From Cetorhinus maximus (taxonomy: Eukaryota): DNA of 64,000 nucleotides. The position numbers and the translations under genes were made by a program. The notes under the pieces were generated by a model that did no database searches, had not been told where the DNA came from, and saw nothing but the letters and a program-made list of their open reading frames with translations. The stretch covers positions 100,502,001 to 100,566,000 of the forward strand of contig NC_135884.1 of assembly GCF_964194155.1 (NCBI RefSeq), given 5' to 3'. Positions 1,707-57,398 of this stretch are shown here, piece after piece. The number at the start of each line of letters is the position of its first letter. Position 1 is the first letter of the stretch.

Positions 1707-2918
1707 AAAATTCATTTACGGGATGTAAGCATTGCTGGCTAGGCCAGCATTTATTGCCCTTCCCTGATTGCCCTTGGGAAGGCGGTGGTGAGCTGCCTTC
1801 TTGAACCGCTGCAGTCTGTGATGTAGATACACCCACAGAGCTGTTAGGAAGGGAGTTCCAGGATTTTGATCCAGTGACAGTTAAAGAATGGCGATATATT
1901 TCCAAGTTTGAATGGTGAGTGGCTTGGAGGGAGAACTTCCAGGTGATGGTGTACCCATGTATCTGCTGCTCTTGTCCTTCTACATGGTAGCGGTTGTGGG
2001 TTTGGAAGGTGCTGCCTATGGAGCCTTGGAGAGTTTCCGCAGTGCATCTTGTAGATGGTACACACTGCTGCCACTGTTTGTTGGTGGTGGAGGAAGTGAA
2101 TATTGTGCAAGGGGTGCCAATTAAGTGGGCTGCTTTGTCCTGGATGGTGTCAAGCTTCTTGAGTGTTGTTGGAGCTACACTCATCCAAGCAACTGGTGAG
2201 TATTCCATCACACCCCTGACTTGTGTCTTGTAGATGGTGAACAGGCTTTGGAGCGTCAGGAGGTGAATTACTAGCTTCAGATTTCCCCTCCCCTGACCTC
2301 TTGTAGCCACAGTATATGGCTAGTCCAGTTCAGTTTCTGGTCAATGGTAAGCCCCCAGGATGTTGATAGTAGGGGATTCAGCGATGGTAATGCCATTGAA
2401 TGTCATGGGCAATGGTTAGATTCTCTCTTGTTGGAAATGTTCATGGCCTGGCACTTGCGTTACTTGCCACTTGTCAGCCCAAACCTGGATATTGTCCAGG
2501 TCTTGCTGCATTTGAACATGGACTGCTTCATTATCTGAGGAGTCGTGAATGGTGCTGAACATTGTGCAATCATCAGCGAACATCGTGATGGACGGAAGGT
2601 CATTGATGAAGCAGCTGAAGATGGTTGCACCTAGGACACTACCCTGAGGAACTCCTGCAGTGATGTCCTGGAACCAAGATGTTTGACCTCCAACAATCAC
2701 AACCATCTTCCTTTGTGCTAGAAATTACTCCAACCAGTGGAGAGTTTTCTCCCTGATTCCCATTGACTCCAGTTTTGCTCAGGCTACTTAATGTCACACT
2801 CTGTCAAATGTTGCCTTAATGTCAAGGGCAGTCACTCTCACCTCACCTCTGGAGTTCAGCTCTTTTGTCCATATTTGAACCAAGGCTGTAATGAGGTCAG
2901 GAACTAAGTGGCCCTGGC
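1707..2918 (-). mobile_element. 5'-truncated CR1/L2-group LINE (family B, Crack-like), RT C-terminus plus 3' tail
   Basis: ORF pieces GVPQGSVLG, FADDCT and YKTQVRGVMEYSPVAW. The tail gggcaataaatgctggcctagccagc is shared with other copies in the window. Confidence 0.85.
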
Positions 2919-14580: not shown

Positions 14581-14675
14581 TGAAGGGCCATGAAGGCTCG
14601 AAACGTTAACTGATTTCTTCTCCGCCGATGCTGCCAGACCTGCTGAGTTTTTCCAGGTAATTCTGTTTTTGTTTT
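14581..14675 (+). mobile_element. 95-bp Penelope pseudo-LTR insertion with 14-bp TSD
   Basis: taataacattgcca is duplicated at 14567-14580 and 14676-14689. The insert is essentially identical to 25300-25391. Confidence 0.85.
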
Positions 14676-18895: not shown

Positions 18896-19994
18896 GAGTG
18901 TGGTATCAAGGAGCCCTAGCAAAATTGGAGCCAATGGGAATCGGGGGGAATCTCTCCGCTGGTTGGAGTCATACCTAGCACAAAGGAAGACGATTGTGGT
19001 TGTTGGAGGTCAATCACCTCAGTTCCAGGACATCACTGCAGGAGTTCCTTACGAAACTCAGCTACTTCAGCAATGATCTTCCACCGATCGTAAGGTCAGA
19101 AGTGGGGATGTTCATTGATGATTGCACATTGATGAGTTGCGAATGGTGTTGGAACATTACTGAAGTAGCCCATGTCCAAATGCAGCAAGACCTGGACAAT
19201 ATCCAGGCTTGGGCCAACAAGTGGCAAGTAACATTCCTGCCACTCAATTGCCAGGCAATAACTATCTCCAATGAGAGAATTTTACCATTGCCCTGGACAT
19301 TCAATGACATTATCATTGCTGAATCCCCCACTATCAACTTCCTGGGGGTTACCATTGACCAGAAACTGAACTGCTCTAGCCATATAAATGCTGTGGCTAC
19401 AAGAGCAGGTCAGAGGCTAGGAATTCTGAGGCAAGTAACTCCCCTCCTCACTCCCTAAAACCTGTCCACCATCTATAAGGCACAAGTCAGGAGTGTGATG
19501 GGATACTTTCCATTTGCCTGGATGACTGCAGCTCCAACAACACTCAAGAAGCTTGACAACATCCAGGACAAAGCTTGCTTGATTGGCACCCCATCTACAA
19601 ACATTCACTCCCTCCATCACTGACGAATAGTGGCACCAGTCTGTATCATCTGCAAGATGCACTGTAGAAATTCACCAAGGCTCCTTAGACAGTACCTTCC
19701 AAACCCATGACCACTACCGTCTAGAAGGACAAGGGCAGCAGACACGTGGGAACACCACTGCCACCTGGAAGTTATCCTCCAAGCCACTCACCATCTTGAC
19801 TTGAAAATATATCGCCATTCCTTCACTGTTGCTGGGTCAAAATCTTTGAACTCCCTCCCTAACAGCACTGTTGGCGTACCTACACCACAGGGACTACAGT
19901 TCAAGAAGGCAGCTCACCACCACCTTAAGGGCAATTAGGGATGGGCAATAAATGCTGGCTTAGCCAGCAACACCCACTTCTGTGAATAGAAAAA
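18896..19994 (+). mobile_element. Family B (Crack-like) LINE, 5'-truncated
   Basis: RT fragments (MFIDDCT, QQDLDNIQAWANKWQV) and the shared 3' tail. Confidence 0.85.
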
Positions 19995-21030: not shown

Positions 21031-21309
21031 TGAGCAAGAGTTGCTTTTTTATGAACTGACTTAAAAGTTACACATCCAAATTCCAACACAGGCTAATTGA
21101 AGTTTGGAAAACCAGCAGCCCAGTATGCATTTGAGTGACTGCAATACTATTAAACATATGGTTCTTTCTGAGTAACGTGATTTTCTTTTAATCCTACCGA
21201 AACAGGAACTTACCCAAAACTGTTGCCCAAATCCTAACCTGCACCAAGTTTTGTTCATCCATAAATCCAGTGCTCGCTGACCTACCTCAGTTTCCAATCT
21301 GGCAATGTA

Positions 21310-22449
21310 TTTTTTCATGGGATGTGGGCAATGCTGGCTAGGCCAGCATTTATTGTCCATCCCTAATTGCCCTTGAGAAGGTGGTGGTGAGCTGCCCTCT
21401 TGAACCGCTATAGTTTATGTGGTGTAGGGTGTACCTACAGTGCTATTAGGGAGGAATTTCCAGGATTTTGACCCGGCAACAGTGAAGGAATGGCGATATA
21501 TTTCCAAGTCAGGATGGTGAGTGGCTTGGAGGGGAACGTCCAGGTGGTGGTGTTCCCATGTGTCTGCTGCCCTTGTCCTTCTAGATGGTAGCGGTCATGG
21601 GTTTGGAAGGTGCTGCCTAAGGAGGCTTGGTGTGTTCCTGCAGTGCCACATATAGATGGTACACTGCTGCCACTGTGCTTTGGTAGTAGAAGGGGTGAAT
21701 GTTTGTTGATGGGGTGCCAATCAAGCAGGCTGCTTTGTCCTGGATGGTGGCAAGCTTCTTGAGTGTTGATGAGGCTGTACTCATCCAGTCAAGTGGAGAG
21801 TATTCCATCACACACCTGATTTGTGCCTTGTAGATAGTGGATAGCCTTTGGGGAGTCAGGTAGTGAGTTAATCGCTGCAGGATTCCTAGCCTCTGACCTG
21901 CTCTTGTAGCCACAGTATTTATATGGCTAGTCCAGTTCAGTTTCTGGTCAATAGTAACCCCCAAGATGATGTTTTGGGGTTTCAGTGATGGTGATGCTGC
22001 TGAATGTCGAGGGGCGATGGTTAGATTCTCTCTTGTTGGAGATGGTCATTGCCTGGCCCTTGTGTAGCGTGAATGTTACTTGCCACTTGGACAACATCCA
22101 GGTTTGGGCTGACAAGTCTTGCTGCATTTGGACCTGAACTACTTCAGTATCTGAGAGTTGTGAATGGTGCTGAACATTGTGCAGTCATCAATGAACATCC
22201 CCACTTCTGACCTAATGATGAAGGGAAGGTCATTATGAAGCAGCTGAAGGTGGTTGAGCCTCGGACACTACTGCTGGAGTTCTTCAGGATAATGGCCTGG
22301 ATCTGAGATGATTAACCTCCAACAACCACAACCATTTTCCTTTGTGCTAGGTATAACTCCAACCAACAGACTTTTCCCCCTGATTCCCATTGACTCCAGT
22401 TTTGCAAGGCTCCTTGATGCCACACTCGGTCAAATGTGGCCTTGATGTC
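21310..22449 (-). mobile_element. Family B LINE, 5'-truncated
   Basis: ORF GVTIDQKLNWTSHINTVATRAGQRLGIL...; 3' tail at 21310-21380. Confidence 0.85.
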
Positions 22450-24120: not shown

Positions 24121-25267
24121 AAGGTAGCTCACAAAGATCACTGTCCAGGCGCGCACACGTAAAAGGAACAACTGTGTCAAGGCACAGCATCTTTAGAATA
24201 AACTGTTGTGATGACTACAGGTTGAATGTCATAGTCAAAGAGCAAATTAACTGCCTATGAAATGCTGAAAATGTGTTCTTACTACAGATTACATTTTAAA
24301 AATTCACAAACATTTACAAAATAAATACCCCAAAGCATTTTACAGAGGAAATAGATAAGGAAATGGATGCCAGGCCTTGGAGGGAGAGATTAGGAGGGGT
24401 GACTGAAACCTCAGTAAAAGAGATGAGTTTGGAGAAAGGCATAAGAACTAGAGTGAAAGTCATCTAGTAAGATGGTTTGAGGCTATATATGTTGTATTAC
24501 TCACTTCAGACTGAGTGAATACAATAGTTTAGGTGATTTTATTGAAAGGATGTATTATTCATGATTGGTTGTTCCTGATAAATCCAACGGATCCATTATT
24601 CATAATGGAGCTATGTATTTAATTTTCTCCAGTTAAAGGAAGATAGTAATGGGTGAGGTAATTCATCCCCTGAAACCTGTTCCACTATTCAGTTAGATCA
24701 TGGCTGAACTGTATCTCAACTCCATTTATCCACCTTTGTTCCATATCCTTTTAAACCTCTATGCAACAAAAATGTAGCAATCTCAACCTTGGAAATTTCA
24801 ATTGATTCAACATCCAGAGGATTCACTTTTAGAGGAGCGAGTTCTTTATTCGCACAATGTGTAATGGAAATAAAATTTTTTGATCTTGCTCCAAGATGCC
24901 TTGGCTATAATTTTAAGATGTCCTTTTATTCTGGATTCCTTTACTGTAGAGTATTCTGTGATAGTGTGTCATAACGGCACAGAAGGAGGCCATTGGCCCA
25001 TCGGGTCTCTGTAGAACAATCTATTCAGTCTCATTCCCCTGCTTTATCCCTGTAGCCCTGTAAGTTTATTTTCCTCAAGTGCCCATACAATTTCCTTTTC
25101 AAATTATTAATCACCTCTGCTTCCACCACCCTCAGGAGTTCCAGGTCAATTACCACTGCTGCGTAAAAAAAAAAAAGTTCTTCCTCACATCCCATGTGCC
25201 TCTCTTGCCCCAAACCTTAAATCTATCTCCCCTAGCCTTTGCACCATCAGCAACTGGGAACAGATTT

Positions 25268-25391
25268 CTCCCTTCTCCTAACTATGCTTCAGTTCTGCCG
25301 AAGGGCCATGAAGGCTCGAAACGTTAACTGATTTCTTCTCCGCCGATGCTGCCAGACCTGCTGAGTTTTTCCAGGTAATTCTGTTTTTGTT
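25268..25391 (+). mobile_element. Penelope pseudo-LTR insertion with 8-bp TSD
   Basis: acagattt at 25260-25267 and 25392-25399; contains a hammerhead motif. Confidence 0.8.
25289..25331 (+). ncRNA. Minimal type I hammerhead-like motif (variant core CUGCCGA)
   Basis: UCAGUU-CUGCCGA-A-GGGCC(AUGAA)GGCUC-GAAACGUU-AACUGA: 6-bp stem I, 5-bp stem II, palindromic AACGUU in place of stem III. Confidence 0.65.
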
Positions 25392-38479: not shown

Positions 38480-39251
38480 ATAACGAATGTTGAACAGGAA
38501 AGCTTTGATATGTGATGATTTTATAATGTTTGAATCATGCTGATCTTGATTGTCAGGTTTGATTTGTTTTTGCCATTGGTTAAGCCTTTCTGATCTGGTA
38601 AATAGCCAGAGGTTGATCAGTTTCAAGATATATATGATTGTTGCATGTGAAAATATGTGTGGTAAAGAAAACTTTACTATGGTAAAGCTTTATTTTTCCC
38701 AAGGGGAGAAGTGTGATAAAACTCCATATTGTTAGTACCTATGCTACAAACCCATGTAGCCAATGTGCAAATAAATGTACACACCAGCAATTTGGTTTCA
38801 GTAGGTATAACAAGGATTAGAAAAGAGATGTTCTGGTTGCAAATAGAGGTCCTTCTACCTTACCTTGAAACCTTGATTCAGATCATTGGACGACTCTAAA
38901 ATCTGGTGCTTTAATGTTATAATAAATATTACAATAATTTTTTAAAAGACAAGGAGGTAGTGAGCTCTCAGCATTCGGTTGGTATCCTTATAGTACTTAG
39001 AGGCTATGGTGGAGACTTTCCCCTTTGGTGATTATATTGAAGAAAAACCATCGTCATCAGAATATTTGTCAGCTAGTGAAGTTTGTTTAGGATACCTTCC
39101 TTTTATGTGGACATTGACATTCATCTGCAGCTGTTAATACTTCTGGATTGGGAAATCTGTTTGGGTGGGAGCTGAGTGCCATTTTTGAAGATTTGACTGG
39201 GGAATAGTAGTGGTGGCATTCAATATTTTGTGTCTTTGGAACTTTGGACAC

Positions 39252-39917
39252 CAGCAACTTCCTGGGGGTTACAATTGACCAGAAACTGAACTGGACTAGT
39301 CACATAATTACTATGGCTACAAGAGCAGGTCAGAGGCTAGGAATCCTGCAGCGAGTAACTCACCTCCTGACTCCCCAAAGCCTGTCCACTATCTACAAGG
39401 CACAAATCAGACATATGTGGAATACTCTCCGCGTGCCTGGATGAGTGCAGCTCCAACAACACTCGAGAAACATGACAGCATCCAGGACAAAGCAGCCTGC
39501 TTGATTGGCACCCCATCCATCACCTTCAACATCCACTCCCTCTACCACCGATGCACAGTGGCAGCAATGTGTACCATCTACAAGATGCACTGCAGAAACT
39601 CACTAAGGCTCCTTAGGCAGCACCTTCCAAACCCGTGACCTCTACCACCTAGAACGATAAGGGCAGCAGACACATGGGAACACCACCACCTGAAAGTACC
39701 CCTCCAAGCCACACGCCATCCTGACTTGGAAATATATCACCTTTCCTTCACTGTCGCTGGGTCAAAATCCTGGAATTCCATCTCTAACTGCACTGTGGGT
39801 GTACCTAAATACATGAACTGCAGCAGTTCAAGAAAGCAGCTCAAGGGCAATTAGAGTTGGACAATAAATGCTGGCCTAGCCAGTGAAGCCCACATCCCAT
39901 GAAAGAACTTAAAAAAA
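39252..39917 (+). mobile_element. Family B LINE 3' fragment
   Basis: GVTIDQKLNWTSHI..., MEYSPRAWMSAAPTTL and the shared tail. Confidence 0.85.
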
Positions 39918-41157: not shown

Positions 41158-41551
41158 CTTTAGTCCTTAAGACCTTTAGTCTTTCCACCCCACCCCCACT
41201 AGAGCTGTACTTTGAATATCCTGTCTTGCATTCTTAATTAGCACTTTTCTCAGACAAAGACCACCACCTTCAACACCTCTTTGACCCTTTTGTCTCTGAC
41301 ATCTTTTGATTATCTGCTCACACCACACCCTCAATGTGTCTCTTCCCCCCCACCCACCTTAAACCAATTTATATTTCTCCCTTGTTGAAACTATGCTTCA
41401 GTTCTGCTGAAGGGCCATGAGGGCTCGAAACGTTGACTGATTTCTTCTCCGCCGATGCTGCCAGACTTGCTGAGTTTTTCCAGGTAATTCTGTTTTTATT
41501 TTGTTTTGGATTTCCAGCATCCGCAGTAGCTTTTAGCTTTTTGTTTTTATC
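41158..41551 (+). mobile_element. Penelope 3' UTR/pseudo-LTR insertion with 11-bp TSD
   Basis: aaattattttc at 41147-41157 and 41552-41562; reverse-complement match to 43290-43640. Confidence 0.85.
41398..41440 (+). ncRNA. Minimal hammerhead-like motif (variant core CUGCUGA)
   Basis: UCAGUU-CUGCUGA-A-GGGCC(AUGAG)GGCUC-GAAACGUU-GACUGA. Confidence 0.65.
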
Positions 41552-42684
41552 AAATTATTTTCTTTCCTGTTCTCTTTAGAATTCCTGTGCATGTATCATT
41601 CCCTAAGAGTGGAGAGAGTGAAAGAGGGTGTGCTGGCATAATATGGCAATACATCTATCAGTGTTACTATTTAGATAACCACTGAGCAATGCACTGGAGT
41701 GATTTACCTGCTGATGTTGTCTCCCAAAGAAGTTTCTCAGCTTCACAATGCATGGTTGAATCATCAGTGTGTGCTCAAACTCATTCACAATGCTCTGTTG
41801 GGATACAAACCTACCACATTAGCAGGCTGTCTTTCAGTTTGTTATTCCCTATCTGTATATTTTTAAACCCTGTTGTGCACTCATGATATGTCAGTCAATG
41901 CAATGGACAGACCATTTATAATGCTGCTGTTGGGTCTGTTTACTGAAGGAATATGGGAGCTGTCTGCATTACTTGCCCTCCAATGTTTATCTTCATGCAC
42001 CCGCCCCCCCACACAGCCCCCCTTGGAGTTGTTTCCCTACATTCAGTACCACTGTTGGATGGCAAAGCTAAAACTGACAATTTTTCATAAAATCCCAGAA
42101 GCAATCTACTTTATTGGCCTGTAGTGTAAGCACATACCAACAAAACAATATGGCAGATTTGAGGGTGCAAAGTACAGTTTAATCCAATGTACAAGCCTCT
42201 TTCCTGATCTATTGGATATTTCTGATGAGAACATTATAAGTAGCCAGAACTTGTACTTTTTAGGTCCAGAGTTTGTGCACGGCTCACTTTTGTGCATCAT
42301 ATTGTACACCCCTTACTTATTACCCTCTCAACCACCTTCATCCATAATAACTTGATACCAAAGTATTTTTTTCTCTAATTACTTTGCTTTTAACCTCACT
42401 TTACTTAATTCCATGCTTTTGTTTTTTTTCTTCACATTTTTTTAATCTAGTGTCTTATCTAGCAAGGGACAGAGTGGCAGTAAGGTTGGAACTTGAACAC
42501 ACCACTCAACCCTTTAGCACTGTCTCAAAAACAAGCATTTCCAGTTTGGAGTGCACACTTTGTAATTGAACACGTGTCATACCAGTGAAGGAATTACTTA
42601 GTGCACCATACTTATGAGAGAATAGAAATGTGTTGTGGCACAATTTATATTATTCTGAGGTGTACAATGAACATGACTATCCTG

Positions 42685-42782
42685 GCTCTGAAGAAGAGTC
42701 ATACGGAGTCGAAACATTAAAATCTCTCTCCACAGATGCTGTTAGACCTGCTGAGTTTTTCCAGCATTTTCTGTTTTTGTTG
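42685..42782 (+). mobile_element. 98-bp Penelope pseudo-LTR insertion with 11-bp TSD; hammerhead core CUGAAGA
   Basis: tgactatcctg at 42674-42684 and 42783-42793; CUGAAGA-A-GAGUC(AUACG)GAGUC-GAAAC. Confidence 0.8.
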
Positions 42783-42944: not shown

Positions 42945-43185
42945 TCTTTTCTTGCTCAAACACCATTCCCTTTGGCCTGTAAGACTAACTCTGGTCATTC
43001 AATCTCCCCTGTGTTCCACCCTATTGTTCAAAACCTATTACATCTTCAACTTTTCCCAGTTCTGATGAAGGGTCATCAACCTGAAACAATAACTCTGTGT
43101 CTCTCTCTACAGATACTGTCTGACCTACTGAGTATTTTTCTGCTTTCATTTCAGATTTCCAGCATCCGCAGTATTCTGCTTTTCA
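42945..43185 (+). mobile_element. Older Penelope pseudo-LTR with canonical CUGAUGA core (43062-43068)
   Basis: AGUU-CUGAUGA-AGGGUCAUCAACCU-GAAAC-AAU-AACU; tail cagatttccagcatccgcagta as at 41510-41528. Confidence 0.7.
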
Positions 43186-43288: not shown

Positions 43289-44408
43289 ACAAAAACAAAA
43301 ACAGAATTACCTGGAAAAACTCAGCAAGTCTGGCAGCATCGGTGGAGAAGAGAAGAGTTGACGTTTTGAGTCCAATGACCCTTCAACAGAACTGAGTGTA
43401 GTTAGGAGAGGGGTGAAATATAAGCTGGTTTAAGGTGGGGGGTGGGGTGGGGGGAGAGAAGTTGAGGGTGGGGTGGTTGTAGGGATAAGCAAGCAGTGAT
43501 AGGAGCAGAGAATCAAAGGATGTCACAGACAAAAGGATCAAAGAGGTGTTGAAGGTGGTGATATTATCTAAGAGAATGTGCTAATTAAGAATGGATGGCA
43601 GGACACTCAAGGTACAGCTCTAGTGGGGGTGGAGAGGAAAGATTGACAAGGTATTAGTTGTAGATTTAAAAATAATGGAAATAGGTGGGACAAGAAAAAT
43701 CTATATAAATTATTGAAAAAAACAAAAGGGAGGGGGAAGAAACAGGGTGGGGATGGGGGGAGGGAGTTTAAGATCTAAAGTTGTTGAATTCAGTATTCAG
43801 CCCAGAAGGCTGTAAAGTGCCTAGTCGGAAGATGAGGTGCTGTTCCTCTAGTTTGCGTTGGGCTTCACTGGAACAATGCAGCAAGCCAAGGACAGACTTG
43901 TGGGCAAGAGAACAGGGTGGAGTGTTAAAATGGCAAGCGACAGGGAGGTTTGGGTCTTTCTTGCGGACAGACCGAAGGTGTTCTGCAAAGCGGTCGCCCA
44001 GTTTGCGTTTGGTCTCTCCAATGTAGAGGAGACCGCATTGGGAGCAACGAATGCAGTAGACTAAGTTAGGGGAAATGCAAGTGAAATGCTGCTTCACTTG
44101 AAAGGAGTGTTTGGGCCCTTGGACGGTGAGGAGAGAGGAAGTGAAGGGGCAGGTGTTGCATCTTCTGCATGGGCATGGGGAGGTGCCATAGGTGGGGGTT
44201 GAGGAGTAGGGGGTGATGGAGGAGTGGACCAGGGTGTCCCGGAGGGAACGATCCCTACGGAATGCCGCCAGGGGGGGTGAAGGGAAGATGTGTTTGGTGG
44301 TGGCATCATGCTGGAGTTGGCGGAAATGGCGGAGGATGATCCTTTGAATGTGGAGGCTGGTGGGGTGATAAGTGAGGACAAGGGGGACCCTATCATGTTT
44401 CTGGGAGG
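43289..44408 (-). mobile_element. 5'-truncated Penelope-like element (Neptune-type) with GIY-YIG endonuclease and pseudo-LTR
   Basis: EN ORF followed by a 3' UTR matching 41158-41500; hammerhead relic at 43356-43393. Confidence 0.9.
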
Positions 44409-49427: not shown

Positions 49428-49685
49428 TGGACAGTGAGCAAGAGTGGGTCGAGTGCACAAAGCTCAAGAAATCCTCTTGCAGGAACATGCCTCCATAATA
49501 TACAATTATGCTACTGCTATAGCAAGTTAAAACACTTACCCCTTTCTACTATCTGTATTTGTAGTAGAAAGGGGTAAGTGTTTTAACTTGCTATAGCAGT
49601 AGCACAATTGTATATTATGGAGGCATGTTCCTGCAAGAGGATTTCTTGAGCTTTGTGCACTCGACCCACTCTTGCTCACTGTCCA
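49428..49685. repeat. 124-bp inverted repeat with 10-nt spacer
   Basis: 49428-49551 is the reverse complement of 49562-49685 except for one mismatch (A49508/C49605). Confidence 0.97.
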
Positions 49686-50119: not shown

Positions 50120-51130
50120 TTTTTTAAAATGTATTCGTTCATCCCATGCATTTATTGCCCATCCCTAACTGTCCTTGAGAAGCTGTCTTCTTGAACCACT
50201 GCAGCCCCTGAGTTATAGGAACATTCAAAGTGCTGTTAGGAAAGGAGTTCCAGGAGTTTGACCCAGCAACAACGAAGGAATGCTGATATAGATCCAAAAA
50301 AGGATGGTGTATGGCTTGGAGAGGAACTTCCAGGCGGTGGTGTTCCCATGCATCTGCTACCCTTGTCCTTCTAGGTGGTAGATGTCGTAGGTTTGGAAGG
50401 TACTGTGGAAGGAGCCTTGGTGGGTTGCTGCAGTGCATCTTATAGATGGTACACACTGCTGCCACTATGTGTCAGTGGTAGAGGGAAGGAATGTTGAAGG
50501 TGATGGATGGGGTGCCAATCAAGTGGGTTGCTTTGTCCTAGATGGTGTCAAGCTTCTTGAGTGCTGTTGGAGCTGCAATTATCCAGCCAGACAAGTAGGG
50601 GGAGTTTTCCATCACACTCCTGACTTGTGCCTTGTAGATGGTGGACAGGCTTTGGGGAGTCAGGAAGTGAGTTACTTACCGCAGGATTCATAGCCTCTGC
50701 TCTTTTGTCCATGTTTGAACCGAGGCTGTAATGAGGCAGGAGCTGAGTGACTCTGGCAGAGCCCACACTTGTGTCAGTGAGTAGGCACCACTCAATGGCA
50801 CTGTCAATGAAACCTTGCATCACTTTGTTGCTGATTGAGACTAGACTGTTAAGTTGGCAATTGGCCCGGTTAGATTTGTCTTGGTCTTTGTGGGCAGGAC
50901 ATATCTGGGCAATTTTCCACATTGTCAGGTAGATGCCAGTGTTGGAGTTGTACTGGGTCAGTTTGACTCGGGGTGCGGCTGGTTCTGGAGCACAAGTCTC
51001 CAGTACTGTTGCCAGAATGTTGTCAGGGCCCATAGCCTTTGCAGTATCCAGTGCCTTCAGTCTTTCTTGATATCATGTGGAGTCAATTAAATTGGCTGAA
51101 AACTGGCATCTGTGATGCTGGGTACTTCAT
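50120..51130 (-). mobile_element. Family B LINE with internal deletions
   Basis: 3' tail at about 50140; sequence jumps at about 50695 to N-terminal RT (GPDNILATVLETCAPE, WKIAQICP). Confidence 0.8.
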
Positions 51131-56602: not shown

Positions 56603-57398
56603 TTTTTTTTATTCATTCACTGGATGTGGGCTTCACTGGCTGGGCCAGCATTTACTGCCCATCTATAGTTTCCCTTGAGAAGGTGGTGGTGAGCTGCCTT
56701 CTTGAACCACTGCAGTCCCTGTGCTGTAGGTACACCCACAGTGCTGTTAGGAAGGGAGTTCCAGGATTTTGACCCAGCGACAGTGAAGGAACGGCAATAT
56801 ATTTCCAAGTCAGGATGGTGAGTGACTTGGACGGGAACTTCTAGGTAGTGGTGTTCCCATCTATCTGCTGCCCTTGTCCTTCTAGATGGTAGTGGCTGTG
56901 GGTTTGGAAGGTGCTGTCTAAGGAGCCTTGGTGAATTCCTGCAGTGCATCTTGTAGATGATGTACACTGCTGCCACTGTATGTCAGTGGTGGAGGGAATG
57001 AATGAATGTTTGTGGATGTTGTGCCAATCAAGTGGGTGCTTTGTCCTGGACAGTGTCAAGCTCCTTGAGTGTTGTGGGAGCTGCACTCATCCAGGCAAGT
57101 AGAGAGTATCCCATCACACTTCTGACTTGTGCCTTGTAGATGGTGGGCAGGCCTTGAGGAGTCAGGAGGTGAGTTGCAGGATTCCTTGTCTCTGACCTGC
57201 TCTTGTAGCCACAGTATTTATAATGGTAACCCCCAGGATAGTGGGGGATTCAGTGATGGTAATGCCTCTGACCGTCAAGGGGTGATGGTTAGATTCTCTC
57301 TTGTTGGAGATGGTCATTGCCTGGCACTCGTGTGGTGCGAGTGTTACTTGCCAGTTGTCAGCCCAAACTGGGATTTGGACATGGACTGCTTCAGTATG
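56603..57398 (-). mobile_element. Family B LINE 3' fragment
   Basis: Same C-terminus and tail as 21310-22140. Confidence 0.85.

What the first reader, a model, noticed from the sequence alone, without database searches (positions are those of the whole stretch)
25289..25331. Penelope hammerhead family with a recurrent non-canonical catalytic core and compensatory stems
Sequence: the youngest-looking copies have CUGCCGA (25295), CUGCUGA (41404) and CUGUUGA (minus strand, 43383-43389) instead of CUGAnGA, while older copies keep CUGAUGA (43062) and CUGAAGA (42688). All carry an extra A after A9. Stem II covaries (GGGCC/GGCUC versus GGGUC/GACUC), stem I UCAGUU/AACUGA is intact, and stem III is reduced to the palindrome AACGUU. 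Knowledge: Penelope-like elements carry minimal type I hammerheads; A6 is normally conserved; an extra A after A9 is tolerated in a viroid hammerhead. Inference: recently mobile lineages use an A6-substituted ribozyme that standard descriptors would miss, or keep the fold for a non-catalytic role such as RT recognition.
Basis: partly seen in the sequence, partly recalled or inferred. Interest (0 to 1): 0.72.

Follow-up and report, generated by a model that had tools for sequence, protein, structure and literature searches.

The report
Penelope ribozyme that lost core A6
A very abundant, recently mobile jumping gene carries a small self-cutting RNA motif whose normally fixed sixth core letter changed from A to U and then to C while the other core letters were kept, so it is likely a slowed-down ribozyme, though cutting is untested.

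Summary
Observation confirmed and extended. The motif is the minimal type I hammerhead in the pseudo-LTR of a Neptune-type Penelope-like element. Intact copies elsewhere in the genome have a 924-codon RT + GIY-YIG reading frame. The A6 loss is inherited, not decay: 3 of 8,322 exact matches to the young subfamily have A6. Across the family, 48,470 of 59,814 motif matches (81%) lack A6. An ORF tree and copy divergence order the subfamilies A6, then U6, then C6. After the loss, 0 of 13 other junction letters changed among 7 subfamily consensuses, and all 4 stem changes keep pairing. Insertion ends point to uncut RNA templates: 105 of 107 copies run past the cut site, and 5' ends cluster at a TATA/Inr-like start (31 of 104), not at the cut (1 of 104). 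A6 copies look the same in this. Best reading: a slowed ribozyme still under selection (0.55). A6C is known from phage Bcep176; the extra A and the palindrome are standard for Penelope hammerheads. This scan already noted A6C in this genome. The U6 step, the order and the constraint test go beyond what that note's short listing showed.

The parts
25264..25391 (+). Solo 128-bp pseudo-LTR fragment of a C6-subfamily Penelope-like element; 5' end inside the TATA-like box, 3' end at the first tail boundary
   Evidence: (family D7)
25289..25294 (+). Stem I 5' strand; also an Initiator-like TCAGTT, 30 nt after the TATA-like box in fuller copies (Inr consensus recalled; transcription start inferred)
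   Evidence: 5' ends of copies cluster here
25295..25302 (+). Core C3 U4 G5 C6 C7 G8 A9 plus the extra A; position 6 is 25298
25303..25317 (+). Stem II (5 bp, one G.U pair) with a 5-nt loop
25318..25325 (+). G12 A13 A14, palindromic minimal stem III (A15.1 C G U16.1) and U17; predicted cut between 25325 and 25326
   Evidence: numbering as in PMC4209133
25326..25331 (+). Stem I 3' strand
25345..25391 (+). Conserved downstream block and U-rich end; most copies end near here or about 45 nt further (two inferred RT start sites)
41398..41440 (+). C6U7 hammerhead of the youngest subfamily (0.7% mean divergence), in a longer pLTR copy
43355..43395 (-). U6 hammerhead with private G12A; this copy continues to the end of the element's ORF near 43770
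42682..42725 (+). Old A6A7 copy, decayed in stems I and II; its 5' end lies at the Inr-like site
43056..43097 (+). Old A6U7 copy of a more distant subfamily, decayed
14582..14673 (+). Young copy identical to 25300-25391, truncated at G8

Best explanation
This is the minimal hammerhead in the terminal repeat of a recently mobile Penelope-like retrotransposon whose source elements replaced A6 first by U and then by C while keeping the other core letters and the stems, so it likely works as a slowed ribozyme that would cut only rarely, as a dimer or with help from the element's protein. Shown: the element, the fixed substitution, the subfamily series, the retained core, and the positions of insertion ends. 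Inferred: RNA starts about 35 nt before the cut site. Reverse transcription starts 65-120 nt after the cut site and must read through it. A cut would therefore remove the cap from the message and break the template, so slow cutting is tolerated or favoured. Occasional cutting, for example freeing units from tandem or read-through transcripts, would keep the rest of the core under selection. The slowdown itself is carried over from other A6C hammerheads; it was not measured here.
For: Fixation. Intact 924-codon ORFs between C6 pLTRs in 2 of 2 loci read; 15 differences in 2,775 nt; the two pLTR copies in one locus are identical over 141 nt. ORF under purifying selection after A6 loss: pN/pS 0.28 (U6 vs C6) and 0.08 (4 synonymous, 1 replacement). 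Order: ORF tree of 34 rows nests C6 inside U6-containing groups (supports 100/98, 100/99, 99/98); divergence falls from 9.2 and 6.3% (A6) through 5.6 and 5.1% (U6) to 4.1-0.7% (C6). Constraint: 0 of 13 junction positions vary among 7 non-A6 consensuses, against 23 of 41 nearby free positions (Fisher p 2e-4). Junction changes fall only at 6, 7 and 17, and no consensus has G17. All 4 stem changes keep pairing, with a U-A, U.G, C-G series seen in real copies. Uncut templates: (105 of 107) and + 65 (31 vs 1 of 104). No other CUGANGA core with a fitting GAAA was found by regex in the full element. Literature: A6C is slow but active (PMC3088659, PMC7151607); a Poseidon hammerhead cuts only with protein and is not needed for insertion in vitro (PMC11167929).
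Against: No cleavage or RNA data. Against the ORF's synonymous rate (0.136 between U6 and C6 groups), 13 unchanged sites have a chance of about 0.15 (my arithmetic); the strong p value depends on the faster local rate. Covariation is thin: 1 pair with a two-sided change, and 483 of 500 shuffles reach that number. A6 subfamilies show the same uncut footprints (1 of 30 ends at the cut site), so the A6 loss left no visible change. One A6 subfamily already had a stem I mismatch. Predicted monomer folding is poor in some subfamilies (stem II probability 0.10 and 0.51), and stem I falls to 0.36 or less in all 9 representatives when 130 nt are folded. Penelope minimal hammerheads are weak even with A6 (PMC4209133), so A6C might leave no useful rate; I found no measurement of U6.
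Confidence: 0.55

Rival explanations
1. The ribozyme no longer cuts; the three-way fold is kept as a binding or regulatory structure at the 5' end of the element's RNA.
For: Templates appear uncut. Stems are kept by pairing-neutral changes. Catalytic mutants of a Poseidon hammerhead still support insertion in vitro (PMC11167929). A6C cut one hammerhead's rate to 3.55e-6 per min at 0.3 mM Mg (PMC7151607).
Against: The positions kept are exactly the hammerhead's required ones, including G8, G12 and H17, and G12 sits in a CpG that decays in dead copies. In the Poseidon element the needed RNA lay in the ORF's first 172 nt and RT started at +111-118, past the hammerhead (PMC11167929).
Confidence: 0.22
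2. A relic: the motif lost function at or before the A6 change and persists because too little time has passed, or because the DNA is part of the internal promoter.
For: The ORF-rate null gives about 0.15 for an unchanged core. The motif lies just after an Inr-like site, and the downstream 41 nt are also conserved (4 of 41 vary). Naiad elements spread without canonical hammerheads (PMC8557442).
Against: Neighbouring positions 6, 7, 17 and the loop changed repeatedly while the core did not. A two-step compensatory change occurred after the A6 loss, which promoter DNA would not require.
Confidence: 0.12
3. A fully competent variant: the element's protein, a tertiary contact or Mn restores fast cutting, and cut-and-religated circles are the true templates.
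For: Mn restores A6C hammerheads to 0.18-0.31 per min (PMC7151607). Protein activates the Poseidon hammerhead (PMC11167929). A religated circle would also be read through the cut site (model in PMC4209133).
Against: 5' ends cluster at the Inr-like site rather than the cut site, which fits linear primary transcripts. No compensating change linked to position 6 was seen among the consensuses.
Confidence: 0.1
4. The non-A6 cores are mutations that arose in copies after insertion.
For: Dead copies do decay: 11 of the first 100 young matches have another junction change, 9 of them CpG-type.
Against: 3 of 8,322 young matches have A6. Position 6 tracks linked subfamily markers and the ORF tree.
Confidence: 0.01

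Closest known systems
Minimal type I hammerheads in pLTRs of metazoan Penelope-like elements (Cervera and de la Pena 2014, PMC4209133; parts 1-2 of 4 read, 2 of 3 supplement files searched)
   Same: Place in the pLTR, extra base between 9 and 10.1, G10.1-C11.1, short stem I, palindromic 15.2-16.2, mostly solo genomic copies, presumed dimer.
   Different: A6 is replaced by U or C in the source elements. The only core variant named in the parts read is U3-A8 in Schistosoma.
A6C hammerhead of phage Bcep176 (PMC3088659, section 8 and passages read; PMC7151607, parts 1-2 of 4 read)
   Same: The same C6 substitution with an otherwise standard core.
   Different: That is one phage motif. Here it is about 20,000 C6 and 27,000 U6 matches in a vertebrate retroelement, reached in two steps, in a minimal dimer-type frame. 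Mn preference is untested here.
Poseidon element of Anolis, PAc (Frangieh et al. 2024, PMC11167929; parts 1-2 of 4 read)
   Same: Two internal RT start sites downstream of the hammerhead that define a tail; uncut RNA as template.
   Different: A different clade (this element has the CX4CxxC linker that Poseidon lacks). In PAc the start codon lies at stem II; here the first in-frame ATG is about 155 nt past the cut site. The passages read describe no position-6 change.
Neptune-clade EN+ Penelope-like elements (Craig et al. 2021, PMC8557442; passages read)
   Same: One ORF with RT, a CX2-5CxxC linker and C-terminal GIY-YIG; partial tandems, inverted 5' copies and tails.
   Different: The paper says canonical hammerheads are universal in these clades, and its core search used cuganga, which these subfamilies fail.

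Membership tests
EN+ Penelope-like element | Single ORF with RT and C-terminal GIY-YIG endonuclease | tested here: met
   924-codon ORFs in L034 and L035; Pfam RVT_1 E 2e-6 and GIY-YIG E 4.5e-4, both just under the curated cut-offs; DKG and YIDD motifs
EN+ Penelope-like element | Partial tandems forming pLTRs, inverted 5'-truncated copy, optional tail | tested here: met
   3,291-bp repeat unit and inverted copies; two 3'-end clusters
Neptune clade | CX2-5CxxC linker between RT and endonuclease (shared with Nematis) | tested here: met
   CX4CxxC at residues 790-798; criterion from PMC8557442
Neptune clade | RT groups with reference Neptune proteins in a tree | not tested
   no reference proteins fetched
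Penelope minimal type I hammerhead | C3 U4 G5, G8 A9, G12 A13 A14, A15.1-U16.1, H17 | tested here: met
   invariant in 9 subfamily consensuses; core-free searches
Penelope minimal type I hammerhead | A6 | tested here: not met
   U or C in 7 of 9 consensuses; 48,470 of 59,814 matches lack A6
Penelope minimal type I hammerhead | Stems I and II, extra base at 9/10.1, G10.1-C11.1, palindromic stem III | tested here: met
   stem II 97.9% of cells paired; inner 4 bp of stem I paired in 17-19 of 19 rows
Penelope minimal type I hammerhead | Statistically clear covariation | tested here: inconclusive
   1 two-sided pair; covariation score reached by 5 of 500 shuffles, number of two-sided pairs by 483 of 500; rows are related
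Hammerhead ribozyme (functional) | Self-cleavage after position 17 | not testable with these tools
   no assay; no RNA reads laid; 1 of 104 insertion 5' ends at the cut site
Rfam hammerhead families | Match to a curated model | tested here: not met
   0 hits in the window at E up to 1, which includes the A6 copies; no hammerhead hit in the full element at E up to 10
Bcep176-type A6C variant | Mn-over-Mg preference | not testable with these tools
   needs kinetics

The most novel reading that the evidence does not exclude
A vertebrate retrotransposon lineage tuned its own ribozyme down in two steps (A6 to U to C), because cutting destroys its capped, read-through template. What remains is an RNA switch that stays off until the element's protein or a metal ion turns it on. 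Position-6 variants would then be a widespread hidden class of Penelope hammerheads, including in elements scored as lacking one.
Probability: 0.2. Interest if true: 0.75.

Novelty: new variant of a known kind. Interest (0 to 1): 0.47.

Why it matters
What Penelope hammerheads do is an open question (PMC8557442, PMC11167929). This lineage gives a dated natural series of A6, U6 and C6 versions from elements that kept moving, with intact ORFs at hand, so cutting rate can be set against transposition directly. It also shows that CUGANGA-based searches would miss about four fifths of the motif matches of this family, which bears on reports that some elements lack hammerheads. The single copy at 25289 is a solo fragment and probably does nothing where it sits.

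Tried and rejected
Rfam: no hammerhead hit in the window or the full element. A second, canonical hammerhead in the element: two CUGAUGA words inside the ORF without a fitting GAAA, rejected. An alternative hairpin pairing position 6 with the G of stem I: predicted only in one subfamily (probability 0.82; at most 0.05 in the other 8 for the same span), rejected as a general cause. A cleavage footprint specific to A6 families: not seen. The bacterial promoter scan does not apply. Two DNA runs of other organisms gave 2 and 0 reads, so no test. Expression, RNA ends and splicing remain unexamined. Luense et al. 2017 on Penelope hammerhead variants was not held; it may already list position-6 variants. 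Seven paper searches showed no report of A6-substituted Penelope hammerheads; this is a limited library. One supplement file of PMC4209133 could not be searched and its figures are not held.

Full report
1. Observation. At 25289-25331 the layout is stem I 5' strand, C3 U4 G5 C6 C7 G8 A9, an extra A, a 5-bp stem II, G12 A13 A14, a four-base palindromic stem III, U17 and the stem I 3' strand. The predicted cut lies between 25325 and 25326. The 43389 copy also has G12A, and both A6 copies are decayed. Rfam gave 0 hits in the window.

2. The element. An exact pattern with positions 6-7 free matched 8,322 places, control 0. Two loci with same-strand matches 3,291 bp apart each hold an unbroken 924-codon ORF. 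It has weak Pfam RT and GIY-YIG matches, DKG and YIDD motifs and a CX4CxxC linker, which per PMC8557442 marks Neptune or Nematis. Inverted 5'-truncated partners are common among the 18 loci compared. The motif is thus the pLTR hammerhead of a Penelope-like element, and 25264-25391 is a solo fragment.

3. Fixation. With A required at position 6 the young pattern matched 3 places. With the whole core left free it matched 9,123 places; of the first 100, 99 are C6 and 1 is U6, and 11 have another junction change, 9 of them CpG-type (counted by hand). A family-wide pattern gave 11,344 A6, 26,869 U6 and 21,601 C/G6 matches (93 C and 7 G in the first 100 of the last). A core-free pattern for older subfamilies gave 42,443 matches, the first 100 being 67 U, 18 A, 13 C and 2 G. 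Exact patterns under-count old copies, so these numbers do not compare fitness. In raw DNA reads of a second organism (D), 14,908 of 16,248 reads at position 6 read U; contigs of organism C were mostly C with 18% U by depth. Laying on a C6 reference at 80% likeness biases against old A6 copies, but non-A6 cores are clearly not private to this genome.

4. Order. A tree of the last 190 ORF codons, independent of the hammerhead, used 34 of 60 copies with ORF hits; 26 were dropped on length. It places A6 copies on one side (weak, 64/88; midpoint root), U6 next, and a 15-row group with 13 C6 innermost (99/98). U6 and C6 mix in the middle group, and one A6 row there was picked as a revertant, so labels need 6 changes rather than 2. 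Mean divergence from consensus in 87 copies runs 9.2 and 6.3% (A6), 5.6 and 5.1% (U6), and 4.1, 3.4, 4.1, 3.2 and 0.7% (C6); four groups have only 3-4 copies. The ORF stayed under purifying selection after the loss (pN/pS 0.28 and 0.08).

5. Constraint after the loss. Among 7 non-A6 consensuses, 0 of 13 junction positions vary. Positions 6, 7 and 17 all vary, as do 4 of 5 loop bases, 12 of 21 spacer bases and 7 of 15 linker bases (Fisher p 2e-4). Many of these copies were fetched by core-containing patterns, but the core-free searches show no recurring alternative core, nor does the untargeted 884-kb sample, read by eye. Three stem II changes and one stem I change all keep pairing, including U-A to C-G with U.G intermediates in real copies. 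Against this: at the ORF's synonymous rate an unchanged core has a chance of about 0.15, covariation rests on one pair, and predicted folding is weak in some subfamilies and in longer context.

6. What insertion ends say. Of 107 distinct copies anchored on the hammerhead, 47 end at +80 to +105 and 46 at +136 to +200 relative to C3; 2 end at or before +36, with the cut at +31. This resembles the two RT start sites and tail of the Anolis Poseidon element (PMC11167929). Of 104 copies anchored downstream of the cut (44 untargeted; 30 U6/C6 and 30 A6), 31 begin between -10 and +2 and 1 begins at the cut, in an ambiguous A run. Inverted pairs are counted twice, so the 7 young cases are 5 insertions. 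The cluster sits on an Inr-like hexamer 30 nt after an invariant TATA-like box (0 of 8 vary; promoter consensus recalled). I infer linear, uncut templates starting just before the core. A6 and non-A6 copies do not differ in ends at the cut site (1 and 0 of 30).

7. Mechanism. Shown: element type, fixation, series, retained core and end positions. Inferred: cutting would decap the message and break the template that RT must read through, so slow cutting is harmless or useful, and rare dimer- or protein-assisted cutting keeps the core. A6C is slow but active in phage Bcep176 (below 0.1 per min, PMC3088659; 0.004-0.05 per min in 1-3 mM Mg and about 0.3 in Mn, PMC7151607). Penelope minimal hammerheads are weak even as dimers (PMC4209133). 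The Poseidon one needs protein and is dispensable for insertion in vitro (PMC11167929). Odds: slowed ribozyme 0.55, non-cutting fold 0.22, relic 0.12, fully rescued 0.10, decay 0.01.

8. Novelty. The element class, the minimal fold, the extra A and A6C as such are in print. Seven searches showed no lineage-wide A6 loss in Penelope elements, but Luense et al. 2017 could not be read. This scan noted A6C in this genome before, and also the clustered 5' ends. It fails the A6 criterion, so I file it as a hammerhead variant, not as a proven ribozyme: a new variant of a known kind, interest 0.47.

Noticed in passing
L034:5105-5140; window 41370-41403: TATA-like box and Inr-like hexamer 30 nt apart, the latter doubling as the stem I 5' strand. 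The 21-nt spacer between them varies at 12 positions among 7 consensuses, faster than ORF synonymous sites.
   Followed up: partly
window 25373-25379; L034:5218-5253: Younger subfamilies have AG/GT where the oldest has AGCA, about 50 nt after the cut site, with AG sites downstream: a possible 5' splice site, since introns are known in Penelope 5' UTRs. An ATG about 20 nt after the cut opens a 10-codon frame. No RNA evidence.
   Followed up: no
L159, L152 and related A6A7 copies: The oldest A6 subfamily sampled has a C.A mismatch at the second pair of stem I in its consensus, so its hammerhead may already have been impaired.
   Followed up: partly
L024, L027, L031, L053, L070, L096, L165, L176, L206: Many short insertions are head-to-head pairs of two hammerheads joined within about 10 nt of the Inr-like site.
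   Followed up: partly
G000:C1 1251169, 1611147, 1613696: Three U6 matches (two look like an inverted pair) have C at 16.2, which breaks the stem III palindrome; possibly a minor subfamily.
   Followed up: no
run X21 (organism D), L034:5143-5144: That organism's reads are 92% U6 and 57% C7, a U6C7 core that is rare in this genome.
   Followed up: no
window 49428-49685: A near-perfect inverted repeat with 124-nt arms 10 nt apart.
   Followed up: no
window 1709-2460, 18943-19980, 21308-22089, 39249-39896, 50148-50699, 56610-57357: Several copies of another abundant dispersed repeat on both strands, probably LINE 3' ends with a SINE-like tail (recalled, not tested).
   Followed up: no
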